Both the position numbers and the translations under genes were made by a program. Positions 15,659-29,790 of a stretch of 64,000 bases of DNA are shown here, piece after piece. The notes under the pieces were generated by a model. The model made no database searches. It worked only from the letters and a program-made list of their open reading frames with translations, and had not been told where the DNA came from. The stretch is from Candidatus Izemoplasmatales bacterium (lineage in GTDB: Bacteria > Bacillota_I > Bacilli_A > Izemoplasmatales > Hujiaoplasmataceae). The stretch spans positions 34,116-98,115 of the forward strand of contig JBAZNL010000003.1 of the NCBI GenBank assembly GCA_041649275.1. The letters are read 5' to 3'. Numbering within the stretch: the first letter of the stretch is position 1; each line of letters starts with the position of its first letter.

Positions 15659-15743
15659 GCGGTTGTGGCGAAACTGGCAGACGCGCTACTTTGAGGGGGT
15701 AGTGCCTAACGGCGTGTGGGTTCAAATCCCATCAACCGCACCA
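15659..15743 (+). tRNA. tRNA-Leu (anticodon GAG), type II with long variable arm
   Basis: The 85-nt sequence GCGGTTGTGGCGAAACTGGCAGACGCGCTACTTTGAGGGGGTAGTGCCTAACGGCGTGTGGGTTCAAATCCCATCAACCGCACCA folds as a cloverleaf. The anticodon loop is TTGAGGG with GAG at positions 34-36. There is a long variable arm, GGTTCAAAT in the T-loop and an encoded CCA. An upstream -10 lies at about 15640. Confidence 0.8.
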
Positions 15744-15756
15744 TATTTCAATCATA

Positions 15757-15787
15757 GGTTTGATACAATCGTATCGAACCTTTTTTT
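15757..15787 (+). terminator. rho-independent terminator after tRNA-Leu (repeat copy 1)
   Basis: The stem GGTTTGATAC pairs with GTATCGAACC across loop aatc and is followed by TTTTTTT. Confidence 0.65.
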
Positions 15788-15896
15788 GTCGGCAGAAAGG
15801 GGGGATTTTCCCCCAACTCCAAAATTCCATTTTTCCGGAGGAGAAAGAAGAATCGTCTTTCCTTCTTGTTTATCGGAGTGATCGTTCAACCTTAAT

Positions 15897-15950
15897 ACGA
15901 TTACCTGACGATTTACACGATTACCTGACGTTTACCGATTACACCTGATG
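15897..15950. repeat. three tandem imperfect 20-bp repeats (ACGATTACCTGACG core)
   Basis: The core ACGATTACCTGACG occurs at 15897-15910 and 15917-15930. A degenerate copy, CGATTACACCTGATG, lies at 15937-15950. The period is 20 bp, in the intergenic region upstream of the first AraC gene. Confidence 0.55.
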
Positions 15951-16283
15951 ATATAGATGAATATGAATGCATTCTCAACAATAGAGACCGATGATTGTAA
16001 TAATGTCAATATCGATGCCATATGGAACGAAGATTTGGTGACGGATGGTGTGACGAATAATGACAGAAAAACACAACAATGATATGGGGTTCGCATGAGT
16101 TATGTTCAATGCAATGCGATACTGTTTTCAGTAATTCAAGCATATGCTGCAGGCGAAAGATATGACCCAATATCATTCGCCTTTCGCATGATTATTATCG
16201 AGAAATGAACACTTCAGCAATACAGTGCAATTAATTTGCTTTTGTATATGTTAAAATATCATTGCGATGAGTGAGGTGACATT

Positions 16284-17045
16284 ATGTCTGAGATGATTCA
16301 ACGAATAATCGAATACGTTGAAGACAGACTGTCAAGCAACTTGGACTTTGACGAATTGTACAGAGACATCGGATATTCAAAGTTCCATCTATCAAGAGCA
16401 TTTAAAACGAAAACCGGTTTTACCATCAGCGAGTATTATTTGAAAAGAAGATTATCGGAAGCGGCCTTGGAAATATTGAATTCAAAGAATCGAATCATGG
16501 ATATTTCATATAAATATGGCTTTAATTCGGATTCGTATTTTTGTAGGAAGTTCAAACACGAATTTGACACAAATCCCTATAAGTATCGAAAAAGAAGTAG
16601 ATATATTGTACTTACGAACAAAATAGTCATTAAGGAAGGGGAAACGATGAGATACACCCATGAAGAAGATCTGATTCATGATCTGCTTTTGTGTTCCTCT
16701 TCTGAGGAACTGAAAGGTTTCTTTGCAAAAACCGAAAACTGCGTCTTGACGAAACAAAACAATAGCCAGCTCGAAATCGTGTACGTCCAGTACTCCGAAA
16801 CTGGTTTAGGGAAGCAACTGTTGACCGTACACCTCAACATGATTACGGGACATGTAAGTGTCGTCCCCATCTACAAAATCACGGATCAAGATGGGCCTTT
16901 GGTTGAGATGCAGGATCTATCTTTTGAAAATGATACTTTGTATGTTTCCTTTATCGATCACGAGTCAAACAAAACATCTCGGGCAAGACTAGAAAGGATT
17001 CCCGAGAAAAGAATTTATTGTAGCTATTCATGGAGGAGCAGATGA
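16284..17045 (+). CDS. AraC/XylS-family regulator with N-terminal HTH (MarA/Rob-like arrangement) and an unknown C-terminal domain
   Basis: The first 100 aa carry the two-helix AraC HTH signature (YSKFHLSRAFK..., ISYKYGFNSDSYFCRKFK). The gene is low-GC (about 38%). Confidence 0.7.
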   Translation: MSEMIQRIIEYVEDRLSSNLDFDELYRDIGYSKFHLSRAFKTKTGFTISEYYLKRRLSEAALEILNSKNRIMDISYKYGFNSDSYFCRKFKHEFDTNPYKYRKRSRYIVLTNKIVIKEGETMRYTHEEDLIHDLLLCSSSEELKGFFAKTENCVLTKQNNSQLEIVYVQYSETGLGKQLLTVHLNMITGHVSVVPIYKITDQDGPLVEMQDLSFENDTLYVSFIDHESNKTSRARLERIPEKRIYCSYSWRSR

Positions 17046-17046
17046 T

Positions 17047-17463
17047 ATGAAAAACCAACTTGAAAAATACGCTACGAAACTGTTGCAATGTGTCAACTCG
17101 AAAGAAGTAATGGATTCGGTTGGAAATGACCATACGGCGGTGATTATGAAACAATTCGGATGCGAATATGTCGTCCTTAAGTATGTGGAAGATGATGAAT
17201 ACCGAATGATATCGCCGATATATATCAATTTTGAAGACTCATCATATCATATCGATGATTTCATCAAACAAAACAAATATAACACCTTCCAGAGACTTGT
17301 CAATCTGGGTAACGGAAAAGCATTGGTCCAATACGACGATTTGCAGGCTGAGATCAGTGTGATTTATAACTATCCAAAAGGATTATCATATCAACTTGTT
17401 TTGGATACCGGTACTTCTGGAGGAGGGGCAGGCTGGGGCAAAGTCGCGTTGGGTCTCGACTGA
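17047..17463 (+). CDS. hypothetical protein
   Basis: 138 aa. The ATG lies 1 nt after the AraC stop, so it is co-transcribed. The C-terminus ends with a glycine-rich TGTSGGGAGWG. No recognisable domain. Confidence 0.45.
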   Translation: MKNQLEKYATKLLQCVNSKEVMDSVGNDHTAVIMKQFGCEYVVLKYVEDDEYRMISPIYINFEDSSYHIDDFIKQNKYNTFQRLVNLGNGKALVQYDDLQAEISVIYNYPKGLSYQLVLDTGTSGGGAGWGKVALGLD

Positions 17464-17676
17464 TTGCGGTTGAAATCCGATTTTCTAGAATTTCATAGGA
17501 TAGAGCCCATAGCTTATTGTCTTTTTGATTGGTATGATTTCCGGGCAGAAGTCAGTAGTCCCATGCATATGGAACGGGATGGATTCGCAACTTTTTTTGT
17601 GGGGATGCAAAAAATGCTCCGCGGGGTGCGATTATGTATCTACACCATTTTCAGCCCTACATATCTGACAATCATC

Positions 17677-17707
17677 GGTTTGATACGTCCGTATCAAGCC
17701 TTTTTTT
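17677..17707 (+). terminator. rho-independent terminator (repeat copy 2, near-identical to 15757-15787)
   Basis: The stem GGTTTGATAC pairs with GTATCAAGCC across loop gtcc and is followed by TTTTTTT. The preceding CAATCAT is also shared with copy 1. Confidence 0.6.
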
Positions 17708-17902
17708 CACCAACGGGGTGTTCTTGATCATAACCCCTTCAGGAAATTGCCATCAACGGGAGTCAAGAATCGATGTGACAACAGGAAGAAAAGACGCCAC
17801 CAAAAAAAAGAATGTGAGAAATCCACATCACAATTATTTAAACCCGCAAACAGATTGCGATGATAGAATATAGGTGTGGATCAATCTGGCGGGAGAGACA
17901 AG

Positions 17903-18433
17903 ATGCTGGAAGTCGTGAATGCAATTCTTGATTATATTGAAAATCACCTATTTGAGGAAATCACGCTTGAAGACCTGTCGGCATATTCCCATTACTCAAA
18001 GTTTCATCTGAGTCGGGAGTTCAATAAAATGGTCGGGACCTCCATACCGGAATACATCACAAGGCGACGACTTTCGAATGCCGCCATCATGATTTTTGAA
18101 ACGGACAAAACCATAAGCTATATTGCAAATACTCATGGCTATAACTCGGACAAGTATTTTAGCACCGTATTCAAGAAGAATTTCGGAGTATCTCCAAGTG
18201 CCTATCGAAACAACCCGGGAATGATCTATCTGTACCCAAAAAGAATGATGAAAGGAGGAGAACAAAAAACCATGAGGAGACTGGATGATATCGTTTGTGA
18301 AGTCAATGTTTCGTCCAAAGACGACAATGAAGTTCGAGTGACCCTAAGCAACATTGAAGTCAATGGAAAAGACGTTACTTCATCCATCGAACTTCAAGAT
18401 AACGGGAACGTGAAAGTCACTTTCTTGGAATGA
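17903..18433 (+). CDS. AraC-family regulator with N-terminal HTH, paralog of 16284-17045
   Basis: The AraC HTH signature is present (YSKFHLSREFNK..., ANTHGYNSDKYFSTVFKK). ATG at 17903 has a GGGAGAG RBS. GTG at 17876 is an alternative start. There is a short C-terminal beta-rich domain. Confidence 0.7.
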   Translation: MLEVVNAILDYIENHLFEEITLEDLSAYSHYSKFHLSREFNKMVGTSIPEYITRRRLSNAAIMIFETDKTISYIANTHGYNSDKYFSTVFKKNFGVSPSAYRNNPGMIYLYPKRMMKGGEQKTMRRLDDIVCEVNVSSKDDNEVRVTLSNIEVNGKDVTSSIELQDNGNVKVTFLE

Positions 18434-18837
18434 ATCCATATCCGATCAAGTAGTCAAAGACGTTTGGCTACTTTTTCTTTTTATATATCCCAACCAGTAT
18501 ATGTGCATCGAGAGAAACACGGATAAGGGCGAGGTGCGGCCGACAAAGGTCGTTTGAATTGATTGCGGCACGCCGACCGAATGACTCAATGGTTCAACGG
18601 CTCCTCCTCACGAATCGATGCATCGATGATATCCACGCACGTCAGGAATGTCGAACAGCCCGCTCCTCCTCGAAACCAAGCATGGTTGCCTCATAGGCCA
18701 AATCTTGATGATCCAACCAAGAGACGTTCATGAAGCCGTTTGACCAATTCGAAGTGTGTCGAATGGCGTTTGATGTTTCTCTTTTTCCATGTTATCGGCT
18801 TTACATTTTTGATGAGACATAGTACAATATGAACATC

Positions 18838-18853
18838 GACTACATTTGTAGTC
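18838..18853. promoter_or_regulatory. perfect 16-bp palindrome GACTACATTTGTAGTC, candidate BlaI/MecI-type operator
   Basis: TACA-N-TGTA dyads are the recognised core of BlaI/MecI/CopY operators. This one sits 22 nt upstream of the BlaI-like gene start and overlaps a TACAAT -10-like element. Confidence 0.55.
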
Positions 18854-18875
18854 AGAAATAGAGAGGCTATCAAAC

Positions 18876-19811
18876 ATGATCAAGCTTACCGACGCCGAAT
18901 GGCAGGTCATGCGTATTGTTTGGGAAAGACAACCGGTAACGGCAAATGAAGCGACCCAGGATTTGTATGAATCCCAGGCCTGGACCATCAGCACCGTCAA
19001 GACGCTGTTGTCAAGACTCGTGGATAAAGGATTGATCCAGGCTGAACCTCAAGGAAAGAAGTACCTCTACCAAGCGATTTGGACCGAACGCGAATGCGTC
19101 ATATCGGAAATGAAACAGGCGTTGCATCGAATCTATGGCGGACATCTGCGATATCAATCCAACCGATTTGCTTTCTTTGGTGCGCAATTGAACACGGATT
19201 TGAAGGATTTCGCTTCGTTTCTGGAAGACAGGACGGATCGAATCGAAAATCGATACGCGTTCAAGATGGATGAGAGACAAGAAATCATCATGTATCGGAC
19301 GAAAGCACGAATGCATTCGGCATTGGGTCTGGCAGACGCACCGGAATGGCTCCGTGCCGCCTGGGTATGGGACATCATCCATTTGGCTCCCGAAGACAGC
19401 TTTGACGACATCCAATTCAAGGCCGCCGCATTGTTCGTGTGGATGCAAAGAGTCATTTTCAGTGTGAACTCATCCGCACCCTACTGGTTATCTCAAGGAA
19501 TTGCGGCATTTGAGAGCGACCTTATCAATCCTTCTCGCCTTGCGAAGACGATGGAATCGCTGCTGCCAACTCTCCGTCAAGATGCCGTGCTGAATCTTGG
19601 CAATCATTATGAACTGTTCCGTCTTCAGGGGGGTTATGAGTTGACGACGACGGCTGTTCAATTCATCGTCAGGACATTTGGATGGGACAGACTCGTAGAA
19701 TTCGTGAAACATCCGGATGCATATGAGGAATTGTTCCATCTTTCTCAGGACGATTTCTGGCATGAATGGTTCAAGCAAGTCGACACAGAGTATTCAGGGA
19801 AGGAATCCTAA
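18876..19811 (+). CDS. BlaI/MecI/CopY-family winged-helix repressor fused to an approximately 190-aa C-terminal domain of unknown function
   Basis: The N-terminus MIKLTDAEWQVMRIVWERQPVTANEATQDL...WTISTVKTLLSRLVDKGLI is the penicillinase-repressor DNA-binding domain. The total length is 311 aa, whereas canonical BlaI is about 125 aa. Confidence 0.7.
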   Translation: MIKLTDAEWQVMRIVWERQPVTANEATQDLYESQAWTISTVKTLLSRLVDKGLIQAEPQGKKYLYQAIWTERECVISEMKQALHRIYGGHLRYQSNRFAFFGAQLNTDLKDFASFLEDRTDRIENRYAFKMDERQEIIMYRTKARMHSALGLADAPEWLRAAWVWDIIHLAPEDSFDDIQFKAAALFVWMQRVIFSVNSSAPYWLSQGIAAFESDLINPSRLAKTMESLLPTLRQDAVLNLGNHYELFRLQGGYELTTTAVQFIVRTFGWDRLVEFVKHPDAYEELFHLSQDDFWHEWFKQVDTEYSGKES

Positions 19812-19813
19812 CC

Positions 19814-21307
19814 ATGATCACAAGAACGCTCAGAATGATCGTGATTTATGCGATTTGTATCTTTGCGATGGGTTGTACGGCCATTTCTACGACATCCACT
19901 GCCTCGATGACGAATTCCACCACCTCGACCACGACATCGTCAACCACCACCTCAACCACGACAGCGCCGACCACGGCGACGACTACGACAACGCCGACCA
20001 CCACCTCATCCACGACAACGTCATCCATCACGACGACCGGAACGACTACGGTTGCGACGACTTCGGTTGTGACATTGGAGCCTGGTCATTTCCCGCTATC
20101 GAAACTACAAACTGATTACGATCAATTTGTTCGATATTTGTCATACAATCCGCAGATTTTCACCAATCGGGTCGAACTGGAGGAGGTCATCGAAAGCCAG
20201 CGGGAGTTGCTTGCGGATGGAATGACCAGCCTGGAATTCTTCCGAGTGATTACCGTGGTGATGTCAGCGATTCGGTGCGGTCATTCTTTCGTCATCATCC
20301 CGTCTGCCATTATCGGAGAAGTGTTTGACGCCGAGTCGGCGTATCCGATTGATGTACGCCTGATCGAAGGGAAACTATATGTTGTCGGGATTGATGGAGA
20401 TACTCAATTGGAATTCGGGGATGAAATTGTGTCCATTGACGGTATCAGCACACAAGATGTTACGGCGGACATGATGCGATATTTGAGTGCTGACGGCGAA
20501 GGAACTGCGTACAAGACGATTGTTTTTAGCCAATACTACCTCTATTATTATCAGCTTTATCTCGCAACCGAAGAAGCTATCGATGTGGAATACATCGATG
20601 ACAGTACAGGTGCCAGCCAATCGGAGACACTCACGAGAAATTGTCCGAACGTGCACGGTTGGGTTCAAGAGGAACCGTTTGAAGCAACGTACGAAGATGA
20701 TGTCGCGATCATGACCTTACGGACCTTTTATCCAGAATATCCGTACACCTTGACGGATTTCTACCTGTTCTTTGAGGAATTCTTTCAAACGGTTGCGTCT
20801 CAGGGCATTCATAAAATGATTCTGGACATCCGTGGAAACGGAGGCGGAGATCCGCGAGTTGCCAGTCGGCTGCTTTCGTATCTGCTGCCTGAACCGGCAC
20901 CCTACTTCGCACCGGAAAGCCCGAATTACTATACTGGGCTCAAAGACCGCGTTCCCCTTTCTGAACCACATTATGATGGAAGACTCGCCACGCTTGCAGA
21001 CGCGTTTTGTTTTTCTACCTGTGGACATTTCGCCTCGTTATTACAATTTCACCAGGTGGGAGTCATCATCGGCGAGGAAACCGGCGGTGGATACACCTGT
21101 TCCGATACCTCAAGGAATTTTACCCTGTCGAACACGATGATGCAAATACGAACGTCGACAACTCAATGGACCGTCGCCGTGGAAGACATGACGAAGGGAA
21201 GGGGAGCCCTTCCAAGCATCCATGCCTATATGAGCCTTGAAGATTACCGAGATGAAGTCGATCGTGTTTACCTTACGGGAATCGAGTGGCTGAACGAGCA
21301 GGAATGA
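19814..21307 (+). CDS. S41-family (C-terminal processing / tail-specific) peptidase lipoprotein with Thr/Ser-rich linker
   Basis: The N-terminus CIFAMGC is a lipobox. A 70-aa T/S-rich low-complexity linker follows. The S41 motif MILDIRGNGGGD is present. The ATG lies 3 nt after the BlaI-like stop. Confidence 0.7.
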   Translation: MITRTLRMIVIYAICIFAMGCTAISTTSTASMTNSTTSTTTSSTTTSTTTAPTTATTTTTPTTTSSTTTSSITTTGTTTVATTSVVTLEPGHFPLSKLQTDYDQFVRYLSYNPQIFTNRVELEEVIESQRELLADGMTSLEFFRVITVVMSAIRCGHSFVIIPSAIIGEVFDAESAYPIDVRLIEGKLYVVGIDGDTQLEFGDEIVSIDGISTQDVTADMMRYLSADGEGTAYKTIVFSQYYLYYYQLYLATEEAIDVEYIDDSTGASQSETLTRNCPNVHGWVQEEPFEATYEDDVAIMTLRTFYPEYPYTLTDFYLFFEEFFQTVASQGIHKMILDIRGNGGGDPRVASRLLSYLLPEPAPYFAPESPNYYTGLKDRVPLSEPHYDGRLATLADAFCFSTCGHFASLLQFHQVGVIIGEETGGGYTCSDTSRNFTLSNTMMQIRTSTTQWTVAVEDMTKGRGALPSIHAYMSLEDYRDEVDRVYLTGIEWLNEQE

Positions 21308-21345
21308 TTACGAAATTCACGACAATATTACAAAAGGAGAATGAA

Positions 21346-22113
21346 ATGAATGAAGTAACGAATAACATTGAAAAGTACTACCACATTTTCAATACATTTG
21401 AACCGTTCAACAATTTCGTCAAGTATGCGATTAGGGATCATCGACCACAAATATTCGTTGACGATGAAGAACATTGCAAATGCGCAATCCTATATTTGAA
21501 GCCCGCCTATTTCATAATTGGAGAGCCGCGCGTTGAATATGCTGAAGGTGTCTTCAACCTGTTTCATAAAGACTCGTGGATCATTGCACAGTCGGAGCTT
21601 TGGAAGCAGGCCATAGAAGCATATTTCAAAGATCATGTCGCGACACACCCTAGAGTGCTTTTCAACTCCAGTTCACTGAACGTGGACCATATCATCAAGC
21701 AAAGAAAAGAAATGCCATCGGGGCTTTCGATCGTTCCGATTGAAAAGAAACACATCGAATCAGGCATGATTAATCATGATGTAATTCAAAGATTCTTTAC
21801 AAAGAGCGATTTTTTGGAAAACGGTTTTGGCTTTGCCCTCGTGGGTGAAGATGGGAAATGTGAAGGATTCTCTTTGACGAATTATCCGGTGATTGGAAAG
21901 GATATCGAACTGTATTTCAGAGTCGGGTATGATACATATCCCGACTATCGCTCGAAAGGGATGGGAACCAACCTGTGTACCTATTTCATCGAAGAAGCAT
22001 TCAGGCGTGGGTATAATCCGGTCTGGGATTCCGCAAACGATATATCATCCCACATCGCCAAAAAACTCGGGTACATCGCGGAAAAGGAATGGTATATGTA
22101 TCATATTCTATAA
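21346..22113 (+). CDS. GNAT-family N-acetyltransferase
   Basis: The C-terminal domain has the GNAT motif-A-like RSKGMGTNL and YNPVWDS. The start at 21346 has an AAAGGAGA RBS; the track's 21286 start would overlap the S41 gene. Confidence 0.6.
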   Translation: MNEVTNNIEKYYHIFNTFEPFNNFVKYAIRDHRPQIFVDDEEHCKCAILYLKPAYFIIGEPRVEYAEGVFNLFHKDSWIIAQSELWKQAIEAYFKDHVATHPRVLFNSSSLNVDHIIKQRKEMPSGLSIVPIEKKHIESGMINHDVIQRFFTKSDFLENGFGFALVGEDGKCEGFSLTNYPVIGKDIELYFRVGYDTYPDYRSKGMGTNLCTYFIEEAFRRGYNPVWDSANDISSHIAKKLGYIAEKEWYMYHIL

Positions 22114-22163
22114 CCGGTTGAGAAAAAGCGGATTGCTGCCGAAAATCCAAGGGAGTAAGTGGA

Positions 22164-23102
22164 ATGAAGAAATTGATTCTGTTCGTTTGTATGATCTGCT
22201 TATCATTTCTACATGGATGTTTTGAAATCTCCACACACATGGATACTCTAGACACAAGCACTACCGTAATCAGCACATCATCAATGACGACAAGTTTTGC
22301 GACTACTCAGAGTTCCGAAATCACGACTACGTTCATGAAAGCTGCTCTATTTGGCGAACCAGGCGTGACTCCGGAAATCTTCGCGCCCGGGTTCATCAGC
22401 ACCGAAACGAACTTCGAATTTGCTGGTACATTTTCACCAGATTATCGATATTACTTCTTTACGCGAAGAGCTCCCGAAGGTGCAAATCGGATTTTTTACT
22501 CAGAGTATATTGACGGACAGTGGTCACATGCGGAGCTATCACCGATCAGCGAAGATGTCGATGAATTTGAACCATTCATCACCCCCGACGGGAAAATGGT
22601 GTATTTCGGATCAATGCGTGATAATCGAAGCGATTATGCCATCTATCAAAGCGAATTTGCTAATGGCGCTTGGCAAACCCCTACATATTGTGATAATGGA
22701 TTGAATTCTGGATTCTCCATGTATGTTACTGTCTCAACATATGGGAATATCTATTTCACCGGTTTGAATGGCATTTACGTCATCAAGAATATGGAAGGGG
22801 AATTTCAATCAAGAGTATCTACGGGGATCGCAGGGGCGCATCCCTACATTTCACCAGATGAATCGTATATGTTGTTTGATAGGGAATCCGGATCAAGCAG
22901 ATACATATACATTACCATTCAGAATAATGGTCATTGGAGCACTCCCGTAAAACTGGGATCCGACATCAATCAATCCGGAGCTGAACAATTATGCCCATCG
23001 GTAACCACAGATGGAAAGTACTTTTTCTTCAGTCGTTTTATTGAAGGTGTCAGCAATATTTACTGGGTTGATGCATCGTGTCTGGATCAGTATCTCGATT
23101 GA
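22164..23102 (+). CDS. lipoprotein with WD40-like (PD40/TolB-type) beta-propeller repeats
   Basis: The N-terminus has a signal peptide and an LHGC lipobox, followed by a T/S-rich linker. Repeated segments (DGKMVYFGS, PYISPDESYMLFD, DGKYFFFSR) are typical of PD40 blades. Confidence 0.6.
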   Translation: MKKLILFVCMICLSFLHGCFEISTHMDTLDTSTTVISTSSMTTSFATTQSSEITTTFMKAALFGEPGVTPEIFAPGFISTETNFEFAGTFSPDYRYYFFTRRAPEGANRIFYSEYIDGQWSHAELSPISEDVDEFEPFITPDGKMVYFGSMRDNRSDYAIYQSEFANGAWQTPTYCDNGLNSGFSMYVTVSTYGNIYFTGLNGIYVIKNMEGEFQSRVSTGIAGAHPYISPDESYMLFDRESGSSRYIYITIQNNGHWSTPVKLGSDINQSGAEQLCPSVTTDGKYFFFSRFIEGVSNIYWVDASCLDQYLD

Positions 23103-23421
23103 TTGTCGTAACGCACCCAATCGCGCGTGATGAACCCCTGCAGAGCGGTTTTTTTTTGATTGTTCGAAGGGAGCTTCCCCTGATCCGCAATCTCGCATGT
23201 CCAGACGGCGGTAGCGCCCCGACGCAATCGTGACGAAGGGACCAAACCAAAACGAATCATAAATGATGATTGTTTTGTGAAACCTGAAATGCTATGATGG
23301 AAGTGGTTTTCATTCATCATTGGGTCGGATTCGTCAGGATGGGTCATTCAACGATTCGTTGATGTCTTGTTGATAGGAACTTCGTCGCTTTGGCGGTATT
23401 GTATGACTGGGAGGGTTGCCA

Positions 23422-24726
23422 ATGGAAATCGGACTGATGATCTCGAAACGAAGAAAAGAACTCGGCATGACCCAGCAGCAGCTTTCGGACCGACTCTACG
23501 TGACGGTCCAGGCGGTCAGCAAGTGGGAGACGGGAGCGGGGAATCCGGACATCCACATGATTCCGCAGATCGCGAGCGTCCTGAATCTCGAGATCGCCCG
23601 CCTGTTCGAGAACGGTGATGGAAAGGCGGATCGCGATCAAGCCGATATCGTCGAGAAGGATCCGATCGCGGAGAGGTATGTCGCATATCGGAAATACATC
23701 ATCCTGTCCGGATTGTTCCTCATGATCGCGTTTCTGTTCTTCGGACTGTTGTATGCGGACAAACTGGACCATCACGCCTACTTGTACGATTGGGTGATCT
23801 ACGGCGGCTTCATCGTCTGCGGAATCGTCTGCTTCGGGCTGTTCTTCCTTCTGACGGCGCCCTCTCCCAGGACCGACCGGGAAGACGATCCGAAAAGGAT
23901 TCAGGAAAGGCGGAACACCAGAATCCTGGCGACCTTTCCCATCGTTCTCGTCCTCGGGGAGTACTTGTTCTTCCTGATCATGAACGACGATTTCTATTCC
24001 CCCGTGATCGCGACGGACTTCTTCAGCTTCTTCGTGTTCACATGCGCCCTGGTTTATTATCTTCTGCCGGCGGCGATCCCGATCTTCCTCGTGTATCGCC
24101 ATCCCGCGAATCGGCAGCTGCTCGTGCCGTTCTCGGTCGTCGCGCTGTTCATCCTGTGCCAGTTGGTCGACCTGAAGGTCTTCCAGAATGTCGCCGTCGT
24201 CTCCGGCACCATCCTCACGTTCGTCTGGGGCCTCCAGCTGGTGTCGCGAATGATCTTCCAGTCGATGAAGCATGCGGAACGGCGACGGATCCGGCGGCTC
24301 CCGTTCGACCTTTTCCTGACGGTCGTCGCATTTCTTCTGGTCGTCCTGCTGTTTGCCGGAATGTTCATGAACCTTTCCGCGAGGACCGACACGATGCTGG
24401 ACGAAGTGTTGTCCGCATACACCCTGTTCAGCGTCTTCTATGTCGCCCTGTACGTCGTCACGCTTCTGTTCCATTCTTCCGATTCGCTGTTCGGACGGCT
24501 TTTCAAGAAGTCGCTCCCCGCTTCACTCCCAGAAGGAAAGGCCGTGGAATGGTTTTCGCGCCATCGAAGCATCCTGGGCTTCGCCTTCCTGACCCTCGTC
24601 GTCGTCGTCTACGTCATCCTGAGGATGCAGATCGACTTGACGAGAGCCGACGGCATCATCTGGATCGGGATCGCCTCGCTGATGGCGACGATCCTGATCG
24701 ACGCCCGGCTCGGTCCGACACGGTGA
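23422..24726 (+). CDS. membrane-bound XRE-family (Cro/C1-type HTH) regulator
   Basis: The N-terminal HTH reads LGMTQQQLSDRLYVTVQAVSKWETG. About 8 TM helices follow. The start at 23422 has a GGGAGGG RBS. This is the first gene after GC content returns to about 65%. Confidence 0.65.
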   Translation: MEIGLMISKRRKELGMTQQQLSDRLYVTVQAVSKWETGAGNPDIHMIPQIASVLNLEIARLFENGDGKADRDQADIVEKDPIAERYVAYRKYIILSGLFLMIAFLFFGLLYADKLDHHAYLYDWVIYGGFIVCGIVCFGLFFLLTAPSPRTDREDDPKRIQERRNTRILATFPIVLVLGEYLFFLIMNDDFYSPVIATDFFSFFVFTCALVYYLLPAAIPIFLVYRHPANRQLLVPFSVVALFILCQLVDLKVFQNVAVVSGTILTFVWGLQLVSRMIFQSMKHAERRRIRRLPFDLFLTVVAFLLVVLLFAGMFMNLSARTDTMLDEVLSAYTLFSVFYVALYVVTLLFHSSDSLFGRLFKKSLPASLPEGKAVEWFSRHRSILGFAFLTLVVVVYVILRMQIDLTRADGIIWIGIASLMATILIDARLGPTR

Positions 24727-24769
24727 ACGCACAAACGAAGACCGACACATCGCTCGAAGGAGGAGTCAA

Positions 24770-26101
24770 ATGGGAAATCATTCGTTAAGAAGATTCGCAT
24801 GGGCCGTGGCAATCGTCTCCTTGGGATTCCTGATGTCGTCGTGCGACCTGATGCTGCTGGATCCGGTCGCCACCGCCACGACGCTGTTCCCCATCGATGA
24901 ACTCGAAGCGCCTCAAATGACCTACAACACGATCGACCAGACATTCCGTTGGGAAGCCGTCGAGAATGCGTCCGAGTATCAGATCTATGTCGACAACGTC
25001 CTGCGGATGACGACCACGGAACTGACGTGTTCGATCGACTTCAACGACTATCTGGTTTCGCATCTGGTCGGCATTCGTGCGATACCGACGGATTTCGACC
25101 TTCATGCGCCTTCGATCGTCCGAACCATCTCGTTTTCATCTCCGTTATCCTCCTACGACCACATATGGGTGAGCACCGACCCCTGGACGACCAATACGAT
25201 TCCGGCGGACGCGTATGGCAATTGCGTCTACCTGTTCACGCCGGAATACGAATCCGATTACCACCTTACGCTACGGTTCGTCTCGGCTCCGGAGGGATGG
25301 ACCGGGTTGCCGCTTCATTGGAACAATCCGGAAACCCAGCGACCGGAACAACTCGACGCGAACGACGACGGCACCTACGATGTCCACCTCTATCCGGACA
25401 CGACGTACCTGTTCGTCCTCTACGACGTGCCGTCTCCGATGACGGCGAAACTCGAAGTGGATTATCGTTTCGCGTATTCGGAGAATGAATCGGAGATCTT
25501 TTCGCTCGCTCCCGAAGAGCGGCAGGTGCTCAAACTGGATGCCCGTGACGTCGGGTTCTATGCGTATGTGAGCGAAGACAATGTCCAGGTGATCATGCAG
25601 GCTTATGATCCCGCCGGAAACCAACTCGGCGGGTGGTACGGGTATGCATTCTTCGAGATCAGGGAGCATGATGTGCTGCCCGACGCTCCGTATGAACTTC
25701 ATCTCTGGAATCCCGCAGATGTCGCCGTCGAATTCCGCATCCTGAAGTTGGACATGTCGCATCGGACTTTGGAACCGAACCGGGAATTCGAGTTTCAAAC
25801 GTCGAATCACGTGGAGGTTTTGGCGATTCCGACCGGTTTTGCCGGTTATTCGGCTTCCATCAAATACATTTATTTCAGATTCTCGGATCTCCATCAAAGC
25901 ATCGAATTCGTCAATTGGCAGAATCACTACACATATCCGGAAGGGAACCAACGGTCGCCGAATGACGGCGAACGGCTTTACGAACTGATGATCAACTGCG
26001 GGTACACGACATATATCATCATTCAACCTTGGAACAATTACCTTCCGGAATACAACGGTACGGTTTTTGTGACCATCACACTGACCGACCCGATTGGATA
26101 G
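24770..26101 (+). CDS. hypothetical lipoprotein
   Basis: 443 aa. The N-terminus has a signal peptide and an LMSSC lipobox, and the product is beta-rich. It lies immediately downstream of the membrane-bound XRE regulator. Confidence 0.55.
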   Translation: MGNHSLRRFAWAVAIVSLGFLMSSCDLMLLDPVATATTLFPIDELEAPQMTYNTIDQTFRWEAVENASEYQIYVDNVLRMTTTELTCSIDFNDYLVSHLVGIRAIPTDFDLHAPSIVRTISFSSPLSSYDHIWVSTDPWTTNTIPADAYGNCVYLFTPEYESDYHLTLRFVSAPEGWTGLPLHWNNPETQRPEQLDANDDGTYDVHLYPDTTYLFVLYDVPSPMTAKLEVDYRFAYSENESEIFSLAPEERQVLKLDARDVGFYAYVSEDNVQVIMQAYDPAGNQLGGWYGYAFFEIREHDVLPDAPYELHLWNPADVAVEFRILKLDMSHRTLEPNREFEFQTSNHVEVLAIPTGFAGYSASIKYIYFRFSDLHQSIEFVNWQNHYTYPEGNQRSPNDGERLYELMINCGYTTYIIIQPWNNYLPEYNGTVFVTITLTDPIG

Positions 26102-26329
26102 GCCGTTTCATCGGGTCAACCGGCGAAGCAGGTCAAAGGGCGCGAAAATCGGACCCGGCCGCTTCCTCGCGTTCGATCCGGATCGCGGTTGAATCGTCAC
26201 CCTTGCTGAGCGACCATTCCACTTGTTTTCCATCCCCGGGCATTCCCTTTTCCGCCGAAACGCGGTATAATATCCTTGAACCGCGGCCGTGACGGCCGTC
26301 GGCATCGCAGGACAAAGGAAGTGACGATC

Positions 26330-26479: not shown

Positions 26480-26538
26480 ACCCGATCGAACAAGCGTCCC
26501 TTCCCATCGAGGAAAGGACGCTTTCTATTTGATGGAAA

Positions 26539-26567
26539 AGCCGTCCGGTCGAGTCGACCGGACGGCT
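26539..26567. terminator. 29-bp perfect palindrome between convergent genes (putative bidirectional terminator)
   Basis: The sequence is AGCCGTCCGGTCGA-G-TCGACCGGACGGCT. It lies 20 nt past the stop of the minus-strand GGDEF gene, with a T-run on the minus-strand side. Confidence 0.5.
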
Positions 26568-26586: not shown

Positions 26587-27459
26587 TCAGGAACCCCGGA
26601 CGAGGTTCTTGCCTTCCTTCTTGGCGAGATAGAGGTTGTTATCGGCGGTGCAGACGAGTTCTTCGAGCGAGGTTTCCTCGGCGCGCGTCCGGATTCCGAC
26701 GCTCACCGTGAGATGGAGCGGCCCCTCGTCGGAAAGCGGGAGCGACTTTCCGGCGACGGCGGCTTGGATCCGTCGCGCGACGAAGGCGGCGGCCTCGAAG
26801 CCGGAACCGACGAGACCGATGACGAATTCGTCGCCGCCGTAGCGGCCGATCACGTCGCGCGCGCCGAGCTGGTCGCGGATCGTCCCGGCGACACTCTTCA
26901 GGACGGCGTCGCCCGCGGCGTGGCCGAAGCGGTCGTTGATCGCCTTGAAGTCGTCAACGTCGATCATCAGGATCGAGAGCGCGTCGCCGTGCTCGTTCGC
27001 CTGGCGAAGCAGCTCGTCGAGCAGCTGGAAGGCGTACTGGCGGTTGTAGGTGTTGCAGAGGAAGTCGTTCTGCGCCATGTTCATGAGCAGCCTGCCTTCG
27101 ACCTTCTCGGATACATCCATGCAGCTGCCGATGAAACCGACGAAGGCCCCCTTGCGGTCGAAGACAGGAACGCCGCGGTCGTTGATCCAGCGGTATTCGC
27201 CGTCATGACGGCGGAGCCGGTAGTCCATCTCGAACGGCTGGTGCGCGTGGAAATGGTCGAGGTAGATCTTGACGCAGCGGTCGAAGTCGTCGGGATGGAC
27301 GCCGGATGCCCAGCCGAAGCCGCGCTCCTCTTCGGCGCTCCTTCCCGTGAAGGCGAGCCAGGTGCGGTTGAAGTAATCGCACTCGGTCGACAGGTTCGAA
27401 CGCCAGATCATGTTCGGCGACGATTCGACGATCAGCCGGTATTCCTCTTTCTTCAGCAT
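26587..27459 (-). CDS. PAS-domain diguanylate cyclase (GGDEF)
   Basis: The N-terminal PAS reads IVESSPNMIWRS...DGEYRWINDRGVPVFD. The C-terminal GGDEF domain carries the intact active site RYGGDEF. The start at 27459 has a GGGGGAGG RBS. Confidence 0.8.
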   Translation of the reverse strand: MLKKEEYRLIVESSPNMIWRSNLSTECDYFNRTWLAFTGRSAEEERGFGWASGVHPDDFDRCVKIYLDHFHAHQPFEMDYRLRRHDGEYRWINDRGVPVFDRKGAFVGFIGSCMDVSEKVEGRLLMNMAQNDFLCNTYNRQYAFQLLDELLRQANEHGDALSILMIDVDDFKAINDRFGHAAGDAVLKSVAGTIRDQLGARDVIGRYGGDEFVIGLVGSGFEAAAFVARRIQAAVAGKSLPLSDEGPLHLTVSVGIRTRAEETSLEELVCTADNNLYLAKKEGKNLVRGS

Positions 27460-27742
27460 TCCATGCCTCCCCCGCCCGAAATCCGGCGTGCCTGAATCCC
27501 ATTTTACTATGATGTTCAAAATAAATCAAGAAAGATGGGAATCTTGACCGACGAACCGGCCGCGGAACCGGCGGGAGATCGGGATGGTCGGGAGCGTGGA
27601 CGACGTTCTCGGCCTTTCTGCATCCCATCCTCATCGAATTTCATTTTTTTGCATCACGGGTCGCTTCCCGCGGTATAATGGATATGAAGTGCGCCGAGTC
27701 CGCTGATTCGCCGCACCGTGTCGTCCCAGCCCGGAGGAGCCT

Positions 27743-29224
27743 ATGAGAAGAGCCTGCCTGTTCTGTCTGTCCGCCCTCGCCGCCTTGACGGCGATCGCTT
27801 GCGGAAAATCCGCCACGACGGTCGCGACCACGTCCGTTCCGCTCCCGTTCGACGCCGGCACGCTCCTGACGCCGATCGATCCGCCGGATTCGTTCCGCGA
27901 CATTCTGGCGAACGGGGACCGGATCCTGCACCTCGACGAGAGCATGGTCGTCTTTCGGGAGGACGGCGGGACGACCGTCATCGCCGACGGCGAGACCTAC
28001 CGCTTCCCTTCCGTCGCCTTCGTCGCCGACGATCAAAGCCGGTGGTTCCTCGGTTTCGATTCCGTCACGCGGACGTTGTATTATTACGAAGACGTCAATA
28101 CCAGGTACACCAGCCTCGAATTCGTCTCGCTTTCCGGCATCGACGACGAGGATCCCGCGTTCATCGGTTATTCCGAAACGCTCAAGTTCCGTTCCCCGTC
28201 CTTCACCGTGACCGGCAACACGATCCGCGACTTCCGCGGCGCGACGCTTTTCCAGAACGGCGAGACGATCGCGTTCCCCGGGTCGATCCCCGGTGATCCA
28301 CTCCGGTTCTACACCTACCATCGCGCCTACGATGCGGCCGATCGGGGCTGCACGATCGAGACTTACGACGGTTTCGACGCCGAGCCGTCCGCCGTCCAGC
28401 CGGTGCATGACACCTACACCTGCGGCGATGTCGCCGCGCGGACGCGGACCCAGGTCGCGATCGAGATCCTGCGATATTCGACGGTGAAGGGTTATGCCCT
28501 GATCGACGCCGCCGGAACGGTCCACACCTTCCTGTTCGAGGACTACCTTCCGGCCGGCGCGACCGTCGCGTTCGATTCGGTCAACATCGATGCATCGATT
28601 CCCGGCTTCGAATCGCCACGCTTCAAGTACGAGGATGCGGAGGACGAAATGCATACGGTCTTCACCGACATGGACTTCTCGTTCGTCGCGGACGTCGTCG
28701 GCGGCAACCGGTACCTGTTTGCGGACGACCGCATCCGCGTCTTCCGCGATTACGGCATCTTCGATCCGGATCTGGTCAGGATCGCGACCTATGCGGCGCA
28801 CTTCGAACACCCCATGGGGACGTATCTCGAGGCGATCGACGATTTCCTGCTTATCATCGAAACGAACCTCGTCGACGAGGAGTTCTACGCCTACACCACG
28901 GTGCTGAATCGCTCGACCGCGTCGACCGCCGGATTCGACGGGATGGTCTATGAGATCGAAGGTGACCTCGCCGTCGTCGACACCGGGGACGACCTCGTCG
29001 TCTACGACAAGACGACCTGGACCGTGCTTCGGACCATCTCCGACGCCGACTACGAACTGCTTCAGGACGGGTTTCTGGTCTATCGAGGCGCATCCGGGAT
29101 GACGATCCTCGACGTCGCGACAGGAGTGGACGCGACGTTCGCGATCGTCTGCGAGTTCCCCTACGCCTGGACCGTCTACGGGTATCTGCTCGAGCGTGAG
29201 GGCGCATACTTCGTGTTTGGCTGA
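27743..29224 (+). CDS. hypothetical lipoprotein
   Basis: 493 aa. The N-terminus MRRACLFCLSALAALTAIAC has a signal peptide and a lipobox. The product is beta-rich with no recognised domain. Confidence 0.55.
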   Translation: MRRACLFCLSALAALTAIACGKSATTVATTSVPLPFDAGTLLTPIDPPDSFRDILANGDRILHLDESMVVFREDGGTTVIADGETYRFPSVAFVADDQSRWFLGFDSVTRTLYYYEDVNTRYTSLEFVSLSGIDDEDPAFIGYSETLKFRSPSFTVTGNTIRDFRGATLFQNGETIAFPGSIPGDPLRFYTYHRAYDAADRGCTIETYDGFDAEPSAVQPVHDTYTCGDVAARTRTQVAIEILRYSTVKGYALIDAAGTVHTFLFEDYLPAGATVAFDSVNIDASIPGFESPRFKYEDAEDEMHTVFTDMDFSFVADVVGGNRYLFADDRIRVFRDYGIFDPDLVRIATYAAHFEHPMGTYLEAIDDFLLIIETNLVDEEFYAYTTVLNRSTASTAGFDGMVYEIEGDLAVVDTGDDLVVYDKTTWTVLRTISDADYELLQDGFLVYRGASGMTILDVATGVDATFAIVCEFPYAWTVYGYLLEREGAYFVFG

Positions 29225-29358
29225 CGTGCCGGCGATTTTTACGGTTTCACAAGATTCCCCCTTGGAACGCATTTACTTTTCGCGCGTTTGTGCTATAATA
29301 CGACTTGAAATGGGCGTCGCCCGCCCCCAAGTCGCCCCGCGATTGAAAGGAATCCACC

Positions 29359-29790
29359 ATGCAGATCGAACTCGTGAACCTCGACCCGAAATCCATCGCC
29401 TTCGCCAACGACCGCGACGAAACGCTCGCGAACGCGAAGCTCGAAGCGTTCCTCGCCAATGCCGGGATCGTCCCCGAACACCGTTTCCAGAACGAACTCG
29501 TGATCAAGAAGGACGGCAAGCGCCTCGCCGTCTACATCAAGTACGCCTCGGTCCCCCGCGGCACGCCGAAGACGAAGGACGTGAACGTCGCCGACATGGC
29601 CGGCGGACCCGCGCTCAAGATCCGGATCTCGCCGGAGGAATACGTGCCCTTCACCGACGGCGACCTGATGCCCCGGATCCGCGAATATCTCGATGAGAAC
29701 CGTCTCGGCATCGACAACCGGCAGGCGAACGCGCTCGCCGAACCGCACGGCGACGGCTACGATGTCTATCTCCCCGTCAAGGGGAAATGA
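29359..29790 (+). CDS. hypothetical protein, co-transcribed with the downstream nucleotidyltransferase
   Basis: 143 aa. It ends 1 nt before the NTase start codon. No motif recognised. Confidence 0.5.
   Translation: MQIELVNLDPKSIAFANDRDETLANAKLEAFLANAGIVPEHRFQNELVIKKDGKRLAVYIKYASVPRGTPKTKDVNVADMAGGPALKIRISPEEYVPFTDGDLMPRIREYLDENRLGIDNRQANALAEPHGDGYDVYLPVKGK

What the first reader, a model, noticed from the sequence alone, without database searches (positions are those of the whole stretch)
15744..23150. 7.4 kb low-GC accessory island directly downstream of tRNA-Leu(GAG), with no integrase
GC drops from about 65% to about 40% exactly after the tRNA-Leu terminator. It returns to backbone values near 23150, just before the XRE regulator gene. 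The islet encodes two paralogous N-terminal-HTH AraC regulators, a small hypothetical protein, a BlaI-fusion repressor, an S41 peptidase lipoprotein, a GNAT acetyltransferase and a PD40 beta-propeller lipoprotein. All are on the plus strand, and several carry Thr/Ser-rich linkers. A tRNA-adjacent, compositionally foreign region without recombinase genes suggests an old or decayed horizontally acquired island. Alternatively it could have been mobilised in trans.
Basis: seen in the sequence. Interest (0 to 1): 0.6.

Follow-up and report, generated by a model that had tools for sequence, protein, structure and literature searches.

The report
Foreign low-GC islet beside tRNA-Leu
A 7.4 kb stretch of horizontally acquired, low-GC genes sits directly after a tRNA-Leu gene in a 65% GC bacterial genome, at a site where every related lineage carries different genes; this is a real but ordinary tRNA-side insertion hotspot with no mobility genes of its own.

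Summary
GC falls from about 0.65 to 0.37 at the 3' end of tRNA-Leu(GAG) (15659-15743). Third-codon-position GC (GC3) is 0.42-0.55 in the island genes and 0.78-0.94 in backbone genes. The source is an NCBI metagenome-assembled genome labelled Candidatus Izemoplasmatales.

Four related lineages (61-66% identity in the left-flank protein) keep the same upstream genes and a 100% identical tRNA-Leu. Each has different DNA immediately after it. One lineage goes straight to the orthologue of window 29359-29790. The lineage-specific segment in the window is therefore about 13.5 kb, of which 15744-23102 is the compositionally foreign part.

The island is a mosaic:
- The AraC1+138-aa pair recurs in a low-GC island of another high-GC genome and on a 30% GC contig.
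- BlaI-fusion+S41+GNAT is a rare conserved operon. It has native composition in a 57% GC genome, and a variant lacking the GNAT sits in a 38% GC genome.

I found no partial tRNA copy and no phage or plasmid similarity. The only scar is a 39-nt duplicate of the tRNA terminator.

Verdict: a new member of a known kind, the integrase-free hotspot island. Interest is low to moderate.

The parts
15659..15743 (+). tRNA-Leu(GAG), the left anchor of the hotspot. It is 100% identical in four lineages, and about 60 nt of its promoter is also conserved.
   Evidence: ARAGORN; Rfam tRNA 49.3 bits; alignment with L008, L009 and L013 shows identity ending at the CCA end.
15749..15787 (+). Intrinsic terminator of the tRNA. 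This is copy 1 of a 39-nt direct repeat.
   Evidence: Terminator scan; repeat family D3; blastn-short 33/39 matches, E=0.009.
15897..15942 (+). 2.4 tandem copies of a 20-nt unit (ACGATTACCTGACGATTTAC) in the 540-nt non-coding leader. It may be a regulator binding site; this was not tested.
   Evidence: Tandem Repeats Finder, 92% matches, score 78; repeat D7.
16284..17045 (+). AraC1: a regulator with a MarA/SoxS/Rob-like N-terminal HTH plus a C-terminal domain of about 140 aa with no known family. GC3 is 0.44.
   Evidence: Pfam HTH_18 6e-18; NCBIfam; only 4 non-self homologues at 57-68% identity.
17047..17463 (+). 138-aa protein with no known family. It is translationally coupled to AraC1, and the pair is conserved in L024, L025 and L052.
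   Evidence: No Pfam, NCBIfam, PADLOC or PHROGs hit; 57% identity to L024 and 45% to L052, adjacent to the AraC1 homologue in both.
17669..17707 (+). Copy 2 of the tRNA terminator (85% identical, hairpin preserved by stem-compatible changes). With copy 1 it brackets the AraC1+138-aa module.
17903..18433 (+). AraC2, a shorter paralogue of AraC1 (40% identical over 125 aa), followed by its own terminator at 18448-18473. GC3 is 0.47.
   Evidence: Pfam HTH_18 1.6e-19; BLASTP; gene call on the Logan contig; terminator.
18876..19811 (+). BlaI/MecI-type winged-helix repressor fused to a domain of about 200 aa with the gluzincin metallopeptidase fold but no HEXXH motif. It is the first gene of the conserved operon. 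GC3 is 0.55.
19814..21307 (+). S41-family serine peptidase, probably a lipoprotein (FAMGC lipobox) with a Thr/Ser-rich linker encoded by a 27-nt periodic repeat. Its start follows the BlaI-fusion stop by 2 nt. GC3 is 0.54.
   Evidence: Pfam Peptidase_S41 1.6e-13; translation; repeats; 61-63% identity to the partner gene in L016-L022.
21346..22113 (+). GNAT acetyltransferase of family PF12746, the third gene of the operon. GC3 is 0.48.
   Evidence: Pfam GNAT_acetyltran 2.5e-33; 35% identity to the gene in the same position in L016, L018 and L020.
22164..23102 (+). PD40 (TolB-like) beta-propeller protein with a signal peptide and a Thr/Ser-rich linker. It is the last low-GC gene (GC3 0.42).
   Evidence: Pfam PD40 1.9e-12; NCBIfam weak TolB and PorE matches; only distant relatives at 37% identity or less in JGI metagenomes.
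23422..26101 (+). XRE-HTH membrane protein (23422-24726, GC3 0.80) and a 443-aa lipoprotein (24770-26101, GC3 0.68). Both are lineage-specific at this locus but close to host composition.
   Evidence: Pfam HTH_3 4e-13; GC3; no counterpart in L008, L009 or L013.
26587..29224 (.). PAS-GGDEF gene (26587-27519, - strand, GC3 0.85) and a 493-aa gene with no family (27743-29224, + strand, GC3 0.83). They have host-like composition but are absent from the corresponding site in L013.
   Evidence: Pfam; GC3; tblastn.
29262..29790 (+). Right anchor: a conserved promoter and a 143-aa gene. In relative L013 the orthologue of this gene lies about 160 nt after tRNA-Leu.
   Evidence: BLASTP 49% identity, 8e-49; DNA alignment of the promoter; synteny of the next five genes up to tRNA-Ala.

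Best explanation
Window 15744-23102 is horizontally acquired DNA. It lies at the tRNA-proximal end of a hypervariable site between the invariant tRNA-Leu(GAG) gene and a conserved 143-aa gene (29359-29790).

Shown:
- The host backbone is about 65% GC (GC3 0.78-0.94). The islet genes have GC3 of 0.42-0.55.
- In each of four related lineages the DNA after the identical tRNA is different.
- The islet is a mosaic of modules that occur separately elsewhere. They are the AraC1+138-aa pair; AraC2; the BlaI-fusion/S41/GNAT operon; and PD40.
- There are no mobility genes or partial tRNA copies.

Inferred:
- The donors were low-GC organisms. Typical Izemoplasmatales or other Bacillota at 30-40% GC are plausible. 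The closest relatives of the modules sit on 30-38% GC DNA, and the islet's tetranucleotide pattern resembles such genomes more than its host.
- The segment was built in several steps, with the most foreign DNA nearest the tRNA.

Mechanism I commit to (about 0.45): recombination anchored on the tRNA gene and its promoter, with an illegitimate or short-homology join on the far side. The tRNA region is the only stretch conserved well enough between divergent donors and this host to serve as an anchor. This is the recombination-driven, element-free hotspot type described by Oliveira et al. 2017.

Cargo function (inferred, low certainty): regulators and surface or secreted enzymes.
- Two MarA/Rob-type activators.
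- A BlaI-type repressor whose fused protease-fold domain probably senses a ligand or peptide and controls the downstream exported S41 peptidase and acetyltransferase.
- An exported beta-propeller protein.
For: Composition.

Source and independent assembly: NCBI MAG 'Candidatus Izemoplasmatales bacterium', 147.8 kb contig. A Logan contig is identical over 15717-27436.

Hotspot: L008, L009-12, L013/14 and L023 keep hydrogenase, a 330-aa gene, GtrA, amine oxidase, a 531-aa membrane protein and tRNA-Leu. They diverge right after the CCA end.
- L008 has a different block of about 7 kb with GC3 0.32-0.46 (radical SAM, Fic).
- L009 has a 2025-aa gene plus an IS3 element.
- L013 has backbone genes directly.

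Mosaic and low-GC relatives:
- The BlaI-fusion/S41/GNAT operon has native composition in a 57% GC genome (L016-L020, GC3 0.72-0.77).
- A variant without the GNAT (S41, BlaI-fusion, a 342-aa gene, an S41-like gene) sits in a 38% GC genome (L021/22, GC3 0.27-0.36).
- AraC1+138-aa lies in a 30-39% GC block of another high-GC contig (L024) and on a uniformly 30% GC contig (L052).
- Tetranucleotide r of the islet is 0.42 to L021, 0.39 to L002 and 0.42 to the L024 island, against 0.13-0.17 to its own backbone.

No mobility signals.

Literature:
- Fewer than half of HGT hotspots carry an integrase and 27% carry no mobility protein. Such hotspots show excess homologous recombination at their flanks (PMC5635113).
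- Described Izemoplasmatales genomes are 29-32% GC (PMC7761423).
Against: - No closer relative than 61-66% identity in the flank protein exists in the databases searched. The empty-site comparison therefore spans deep divergence, and the timing and direction of gains and losses cannot be resolved.
- No near-identical donor was found. Module identities to their relatives are only 35-68%.
- The recombination mechanism is inferred from absences, not from a detected recombination tract.
- The 39-nt terminator duplication (and a similar 34-nt one in L009) looks more like a scar of a duplicative, Campbell-type or site-specific insertion than of a double crossover.
- The left junction falls in a tRNA where the independent assembly breaks.
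Confidence: 0.75

Rival explanations
1. The islet is a remnant of one or more site-specific integrative elements. In this reading a tyrosine or serine recombinase targeted the tRNA-Leu 3' flank and the integrase and far attachment site were later deleted, or cargo-only satellites were mobilised by an integrase encoded elsewhere.
For: - tRNA 3' sides are classic integrase targets, and successive integrations push older material inward (10.1101/2020.12.28.424599).
- The sequence starting 6 nt after the tRNA is duplicated 1.9 kb downstream in the window (33/39, E=0.009).
- It is also duplicated 0.3 kb downstream in L009 (30/34, E=3e-5). Both resemble attL/attR-like scars.
- The AraC1+138-aa pair is also bracketed by direct repeats of about 72 nt in L024.
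- A 32% GC viral contig has two large serine recombinases next to a tRNA-Leu(GAG)/Gly/Leu(CAG) cluster. The tRNA-Leu(CAG) of that cluster shares the 28-nt 3' end of the window's tRNA-Leu(GAG).
Against: - There is no integrase gene or fragment in the ORFs or in four of the five intergenic stretches translated in six frames.
- No partial tRNA-Leu was found anywhere in the window.
- No partial tRNA was found in L008, in L009, or after tRNA-Ala in the window and in L013.
- None of the five tRNA-side variable segments examined carries a tyrosine or serine recombinase.
- The bracketing repeats differ in sequence between genomes, which does not fit one conserved attachment core.
Confidence: 0.3
2. 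The low-GC block is an assembly or binning chimera. DNA from a low-GC organism was joined to a high-GC contig at the shared tRNA sequence.
For: - The tRNA-Leu is identical across lineages and could mislead an assembler.
- The independent Logan contig starts inside the tRNA at 15717.
- The L023 contig also stops just after its tRNA.
Against: - The Logan contig runs without a break from the low-GC block into host-composition genes up to 27436.
- Both flanks of the segment are syntenic with the two sides of the same tRNA-Leu locus in L013.
- Other contigs show the same pattern: L008 after the same tRNA, and L024 in an internal low-GC to high-GC transition.
- A chimera would need two false joins.
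Confidence: 0.04
3. The genes are native and vertically inherited. In this reading the low GC reflects local mutation bias or functional constraint, not transfer.
For: - Homologues of the operon and of the AraC1 pair occur in genomes that look related to the host. L016 and the L024 backbone have tetranucleotide r of 0.72-0.78 to the window backbone.
- Their identities (54-64%) are similar to backbone divergence.
Against: - None of the relatives has these genes at this locus.
- The GC3 gap of 0.3-0.5 affects synonymous sites of seven consecutive genes and stops at gene boundaries.
- In L024 the orthologous pair is itself in a foreign low-GC block.
Confidence: 0.03

Closest known systems
Integrase-free chromosomal hotspots of horizontal gene transfer (Oliveira, Touchon, Cury & Rocha 2017, PMC5635113)
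   Same: - A short interval between conserved genes holds different accessory genes in each lineage.
- It lies next to a tRNA.
- It has no integrase, transposase, phage or conjugation genes.
- Its composition is foreign.
   Different: - The paper's evidence comes from within-species pangenomes with recombination tests on flanking core genes. Here only four deeply diverged lineages (61-66% identity in the flank protein) are available and no recombination test was possible.
- The GC contrast (65% against 38-50%) is unusually large.
tRNA-associated genomic islands built by serial site-specific integration (classical genomic islands; Prochlorococcus tycheposon islands, 10.1101/2020.12.28.424599)
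   Same: - The position is directly 3' of a tRNA gene.
- The content is a layered mosaic with the most foreign DNA nearest the tRNA.
- The cargo consists of regulators and surface or defence genes.
- A second islet after tRNA-Ala carries a defence system.
   Different: - There is no integrase, excisionase or replication module.
- There are no partial-tRNA direct repeats.
- The only repeat is the tRNA's terminator, which lies outside the tRNA.
BlaI/MecI-BlaR1 repressor-protease signalling
   Same: - It is physically linked to a metallopeptidase-fold domain and is followed by an exported serine-hydrolase-type enzyme.
   Different: - There is no BlaR1 (M56) membrane sensor.
- The protease-fold domain is fused to the repressor itself, is soluble and lacks HEXXH.
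- The downstream genes are an S41 peptidase and a GNAT, not a beta-lactamase or PBP2a.

Membership tests
Horizontally acquired genomic island | Composition and codon usage differ from the host genome. | tested here: met
   GC 0.438 against 0.652 (p=4e-9); GC3 0.42-0.55 against 0.78-0.94; tetranucleotide r 0.13-0.17 to own backbone.
Horizontally acquired genomic island | Absent from the same locus in related genomes (variable content between conserved flanks). | tested here: met
   L008, L009-12 and L013/14 share the left flank and the tRNA but carry other DNA after it. L013 joins the tRNA directly to the orthologue of window 29359-29790. The relatives are distant (61-66% identity in the flank protein).
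Horizontally acquired genomic island | Adjacent to a tRNA gene. | tested here: met
   The low-GC DNA starts within a few nucleotides of the CCA end of tRNA-Leu(GAG).
Integrative mobile element (prophage, ICE/IME, tycheposon-like) | Encodes a tyrosine or serine recombinase. | tested here: not met
   No such Pfam, NCBIfam, PHROGs or PADLOC hit in any ORF of 15744-29224, or in six-frame translations of four of the five intergenic stretches (26102-26586 was not scanned).
Integrative mobile element (prophage, ICE/IME, tycheposon-like) | Flanked by direct repeats that include the 3' part of the target tRNA (attL/attR). | tested here: not met
   No second copy of the tRNA 3' end at up to 3 mismatches, nor by blastn-short or Rfam. 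Only the terminator outside the tRNA is repeated (15749-15787 and 17669-17707).
Integrative mobile element (prophage, ICE/IME, tycheposon-like) | Similarity to known phages or plasmids, or phage, conjugation or replication genes. | tested here: not met
   No DNA match in 50,697 phage records. One low-complexity match in plasmids. PHROGs hits are only to HTH domains.
Anti-phage defence island | Contains recognised defence system proteins. | tested here: not met
   PADLOC gave nothing for eight proteins of 16284-26101 apart from a weak winged-helix match. The XRE-membrane protein, PAS-GGDEF and the 493-aa protein were not scanned against PADLOC. The separate islet after tRNA-Ala does contain IetA/IetS.
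BlaI/BlaR1-type regulatory system | BlaI/MecI-family winged-helix repressor. | tested here: met
   [not shown]
BlaI/BlaR1-type regulatory system | Partner BlaR1/MecR1 membrane sensor with an M56 zinc-protease domain (HEXXH) and a penicillin-binding sensor domain. | tested here: not met
   No such gene in the island or in the homologous operons. The fused protease-fold domain has H169-L-A-P-E173 instead of HEXXH and Gln at the usual third-ligand Glu.

The most novel reading that the evidence does not exclude
The terminator that starts 6 nt after tRNA-Leu is duplicated in two lineages: 39 nt in the window and 34 nt in L009. Each lineage duplicates its own sequence. The AraC1+138-aa pair is bracketed by direct repeats in two unrelated hosts (the window and L024). 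Together these could mark an unrecognised way of inserting small recombinase-free gene cassettes, with a long duplication of the target. Candidates are a trans-acting recombinase that recognises tRNA terminators, or a circular cassette intermediate that integrates by short homology. Separately, the BlaI-repressor/pseudo-gluzincin fusion with its S41 peptidase and GNAT could be a new one-component sensor system.
Probability: 0.1. Interest if true: 0.6.

Novelty: new member of a known kind. Interest (0 to 1): 0.3.

Why it matters
This is a clean, well-bounded example of a tRNA-anchored gene-gain hotspot in a poorly known lineage: high-GC relatives of the normally 29-32% GC Izemoplasmatales. The large GC contrast makes recent gene flow from low-GC organisms easy to see. 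It also shows that the same site and a neighbouring tRNA-Ala site are refilled independently in each lineage without any resident mobility gene. In practice the block should be annotated as accessory, horizontally acquired DNA. The rare BlaI-fusion/S41/GNAT operon and the AraC1+138-aa pair should be treated as portable modules. None of this changes current understanding of genomic islands.

Tried and rejected
1. Partial tRNA-Leu duplicate near 23100-23200 or elsewhere. Pattern searches with up to 3 mismatches, blastn-short and Rfam at E<=1 found none.
2. Close relatives with an empty site.
   - The genome-contig scan returned only 36-41% relatives.
   - The 5.8-billion-protein search found nothing between 100% and 66% identity.
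   - A 90%-cluster member of the L008 lineage (L023) ends 175 nt after the tRNA.
3. Phage or plasmid origin. There was no DNA similarity.
4. Defence-island reading. PADLOC was negative for the islet.
5. Recombinase pseudogenes. Six-frame translations of four of the five intergenic regions had no Pfam hit even at E<=1.
6. Taxonomic naming of homologues by cluster look-up. It gave no organism names.
7. PD40 relatives in JGI metagenomes. Only hits of 37% identity or less were found, which is uninformative.
8. The idea that AraC1's C-terminal domain and the 138-aa protein are related. BLASTP E=10, rejected.
9. Viral contigs carrying the terminator motif or the tRNA 3' end.
   - The 13 terminator-motif matches were not examined.
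   - The two exact tRNA-end matches belong to tRNA-Leu(CAG) genes of 32% GC genomes. They are suggestive of element traffic at tRNA-Leu genes but have no direct link to this islet.
10. Exact look-up of the 530-aa flank protein in the look-up of encoding contigs failed, although the protein is in the collection.

Full report
**Observation**

ARAGORN and Rfam place tRNA-Leu(GAG) at 15659-15743 on the + strand. GC in 500-nt windows falls from 0.67 to 0.38 across the tRNA's 3' end. It stays at 0.35-0.51 until about 23250. The rest of the 64 kb window is 0.60-0.69, apart from a second low-GC block at 34.5-38.5 kb and a dip to 0.55-0.59 at 59-61 kb.

Island 500-nt windows average 0.438 and backbone windows 0.652, with no overlap (Mann-Whitney p=4e-9). 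GC3 separates the two classes even better. Backbone genes score 0.78-0.94. The island genes score:

| Gene | GC3 |
|---|---|
| AraC1 | 0.44 |
| 138-aa gene | 0.43 |
| AraC2 | 0.47 |
| BlaI-fusion | 0.55 |
| S41 | 0.54 |
| GNAT | 0.48 |
| PD40 | 0.42 |

. The tetranucleotide correlation between the island and its own backbone is 0.13-0.17, whereas the two backbone halves correlate at 0.87.

The two AraC regulators are 40% identical over 125 residues.

One correction concerns the right edge. The sharp block ends at the PD40 stop (23102), but raw GC stays at 0.51-0.59 until about 26500. The XRE-membrane gene (GC3 0.80) and the 443-aa lipoprotein (0.68) are near-native to intermediate.

**Source and assembly**

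The left-flank 530-aa membrane protein is 100% identical to a protein of an NCBI metagenome-assembled genome, 'Candidatus Izemoplasmatales bacterium', on a 147,760-bp contig. A Logan contig from run SRR8542065 is 100% identical to window 15717-27436. It therefore joins the last 27 nt of the tRNA to the island. It also carries the island without a break into host-composition genes.

A chimera would need two false joins, and it would contradict the synteny described below. I give that rival 0.04.

**The locus in relatives**

The protein search found relatives of the flank protein at 66%, 64% and 61% identity and nothing closer. Their contigs are L008/L023, L009-L012 (Tenericutes bacterium GWF2_57_13) and L013/L014. 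All keep the same upstream genes and a tRNA-Leu(GAG). The upstream genes are FeFe hydrogenase, a 330-aa gene, GtrA, amine oxidase and the 531-aa membrane protein.

The tRNA and about 60 nt of its promoter are identical in all four lineages. Similarity stops at the CCA end. What follows differs:

- **L008:** another block of about 7 kb at 34-44% GC (GC3 0.32-0.46) with a radical-SAM enzyme, two unknown genes and a Fic protein.
- **L009:** about 0.8 kb of low-GC non-coding DNA, a 2025-aa surface protein, CsbD and an IS3 element.
- **L013:** backbone-composition genes directly.

The first L013 gene is the orthologue of window 29359-29790 (49% identity). Its promoter is conserved at the DNA level. 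The next five genes up to tRNA-Ala(GGC) are collinear with window 29787-34504.

Relative to L013 the window therefore has about 13.5 kb of extra DNA (15744 to about 29250). The finding covers the compositionally foreign, tRNA-proximal 7.4 kb of that segment.

**Mosaic structure and likely donors**

The BlaI-fusion has only ten homologue clusters among 5.8 billion proteins.

- In L016-L020 (a 57% GC genome) it heads a three-gene operon, BlaI-fusion, S41, GNAT PF12746, with overlapping stops and starts. The operon is embedded among housekeeping genes (CTP synthase, TldD/PmbA, aldolase, lysS/asnS, ftsH, hpt, tilS). Its composition is native there (GC3 0.72-0.77 against 0.80-0.85).
- In L021/L022 (38% GC) a variant with two S41-type genes has native low-GC composition.
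- Identities among the three versions form a star: S41 61-64%, BlaI 54-55%.

AraC1 has four non-self homologues.

- In L024/L025 the AraC1+138-aa pair (64% and 57% identity) lies in a 30-39% GC block (GC3 0.25-0.34). The rest of that contig is 50-62% GC (GC3 0.64-0.83). This is a second island in another high-GC host.
- On L052 the pair sits in uniformly 30% GC DNA between an APH-family kinase and two GNATs.

The islet's tetranucleotide pattern correlates at 0.39-0.42 with low-GC genomes and with the L024 island. Described Izemoplasmatales are 29-32% GC (PMC7761423). The simplest reading is gene flow from ordinary low-GC relatives or other low-GC Bacillota into an unusual high-GC clade. That is an inference: no near-identical donor was found.

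**Mobility signals**

- No recombinase, transposase, phage, conjugation or replication family appears in any ORF of 15744-29224. Six-frame translations of four of the five intergenic regions were also negative.
- There is no similarity to 50,697 phage or 72,556 plasmid records, apart from one low-complexity hit.
- The predicted partial tRNA copy near 23100-23200 is absent, as is any copy elsewhere.
- The same test was negative for the window's tRNA-Ala islet, for L008, for L009 and for the L013 tRNA-Ala islet.

One repeat stands out. The tRNA's terminator (15749-15787, starting 6 nt after the CCA end) recurs at 17669-17707. The match is 33/39 with the hairpin preserved (E=0.009), and the two copies bracket the AraC1+138-aa module. 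L009 shows the same kind of event with its own terminator: 3212-3245 and 3529-3562, 30/34, E=3e-5. In L024 the AraC1 pair is bracketed by unrelated direct repeats of about 72 nt. I could not explain these repeats. They are the main argument for a duplicative insertion process.

**Mechanism**

Two routes are compatible with the data.

- **Recombination anchored on the invariant tRNA and its promoter**, with a short-homology or illegitimate join distally. This is the behaviour reported for hotspots that lack mobile elements. In that study fewer than half of hotspots have an integrase and 27% have no mobility protein. Such hotspots also show excess recombination at their flanks (PMC5635113).
- **Site-specific integration by elements whose recombinase was lost or acts in trans**, as in tRNA islands built by serial integration (10.1101/2020.12.28.424599).

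None of the five independent tRNA-side variable segments I examined has a tyrosine or serine recombinase or a partial tRNA. I therefore favour the first route at about 0.45 and give the second about 0.30. The remainder is undecided. Either way the islet is not self-mobile.

The strong GC3 contrast argues against 'old'. There is no positive evidence for 'decayed'.

**Cargo**

AraC1 and AraC2 have the MarA/SoxS/Rob arrangement, with the HTH domain at the N terminus.

An AlphaFold2 model of the BlaI-fusion (mean pLDDT 87) matches two kinds of solved structure:

The family has H169 (invariant) followed by L-A-P-E173 (E173 nearly invariant) and W-L-x-Q207-G (Q207 nearly invariant) where active enzymes have HEXXH and a Glu ligand. 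I read the domain as a sensor derived from a protease rather than an active enzyme. That is an inference.

The S41 gene starts 2 nt after the BlaI-fusion stop. It encodes a signal peptide with a lipobox-like FAMGC and a Thr/Ser-rich linker. The neighbours of the AraC1 pair elsewhere are acetyltransferases, HAD hydrolases and an APH-type kinase. The cargo as a whole looks like regulated small-molecule-modifying and surface or secreted enzymes. It is not a defence or mobility module (PADLOC negative).

**Comparison, novelty and score**

The feature meets the tested criteria of a horizontally acquired island in a tRNA-adjacent hotspot. It fails the tested criteria of an integrative mobile element and of a BlaI/BlaR1 system (see the membership table). 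It is a new member of a known kind.

Three points carry some interest:

- the very large GC contrast in a high-GC Izemoplasmatales-like clade;
- the independent refilling of two neighbouring tRNA sites;
- the rare BlaI-pseudo-protease operon and the unexplained terminator duplications.

I score interest at 0.3. The most novel reading still open is a recombinase-free cassette insertion process that duplicates the tRNA terminator. I give it a probability of about 0.1.

Noticed in passing
window 34412-38300: A second low-GC islet (GC 0.36-0.41, GC3 0.34-0.36) starts right after tRNA-Ala(GGC) at 34412-34487. It encodes an IetA/IetS anti-phage defence pair: AAA ATPase at 34603-35661 (PADLOC IetA 2.4e-36) and S8 subtilase at 35645-37891 (IetS 3.4e-62). 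It has no integrase and no tRNA-Ala 3' end repeat. In relative L013 the same tRNA-Ala is followed by a different lower-GC insert (a trypsin-MORN protein).
   Followed up: partly
window 15749-15787 and 17669-17707; L009 3212-3245 and 3529-3562: In two lineages the terminator that starts 6 nt after tRNA-Leu is duplicated downstream, and each lineage duplicates its own sequence. The duplicates bracket 1.9 kb (AraC1+138-aa) in the window and 0.3 kb of non-coding DNA in L009. The cause is unknown.
   Followed up: partly
L024 2699-2770 and 4264-4396: In another high-GC host the orthologous AraC1+138-aa pair lies in a 30-39% GC block and is bracketed by direct repeats of about 72 nt (82-92% identical). 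The right copy contains two extra units of about 30 nt (GGGGTGCTAAAAT...TACACGAT).
   Followed up: partly
window 15897-15942: There are 2.4 tandem copies of a 20-nt unit (ACGATTACCTGACGATTTAC) in the long non-coding leader upstream of AraC1. A TTTACACGAT-like core also occurs in the L024 repeats. It may be an operator; this was not tested.
   Followed up: no
window 18876-19811: The BlaI-type repressor is fused to a gluzincin-fold domain without HEXXH. The family is very rare (10 clusters in 5.8 billion proteins) and is always next to an S41-type peptidase gene in the contexts examined.
   Followed up: partly
whole window (backbone): The backbone is about 65% GC (GC3 up to 0.94), yet the record is labelled Candidatus Izemoplasmatales, whose described genomes are 29-32% GC. 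Related contigs are 57-63% GC, which suggests a high-GC clade within or near that order, or a loose taxonomic label.
   Followed up: partly
window 60127-61404: A lower-GC stretch (0.55-0.59 at 59-61 kb) contains an AAA_14/DUF4143 ATPase gene between V-type ATPase and ABC-2 transporter genes. No mobility gene was seen there.
   Followed up: partly
L050 3515-7585: An IMG/VR contig of 32% GC has two large serine recombinases next to a tRNA-Leu(GAG)/tRNA-Gly/tRNA-Leu(CAG) cluster. The tRNA-Leu(CAG) shares the exact 28-nt 3' end of the window's tRNA-Leu(GAG). This shows that low-GC genomes share that tRNA end and that elements integrate near such tRNA genes.
   Followed up: partly
window 26321-26479: A small lysine-rich ORF (52 aa, KKKADKNNPKLKKP...) lies between the 443-aa lipoprotein gene and the PAS-GGDEF gene. 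It is called as a gene on the Logan contig, and its function is unknown.
   Followed up: no
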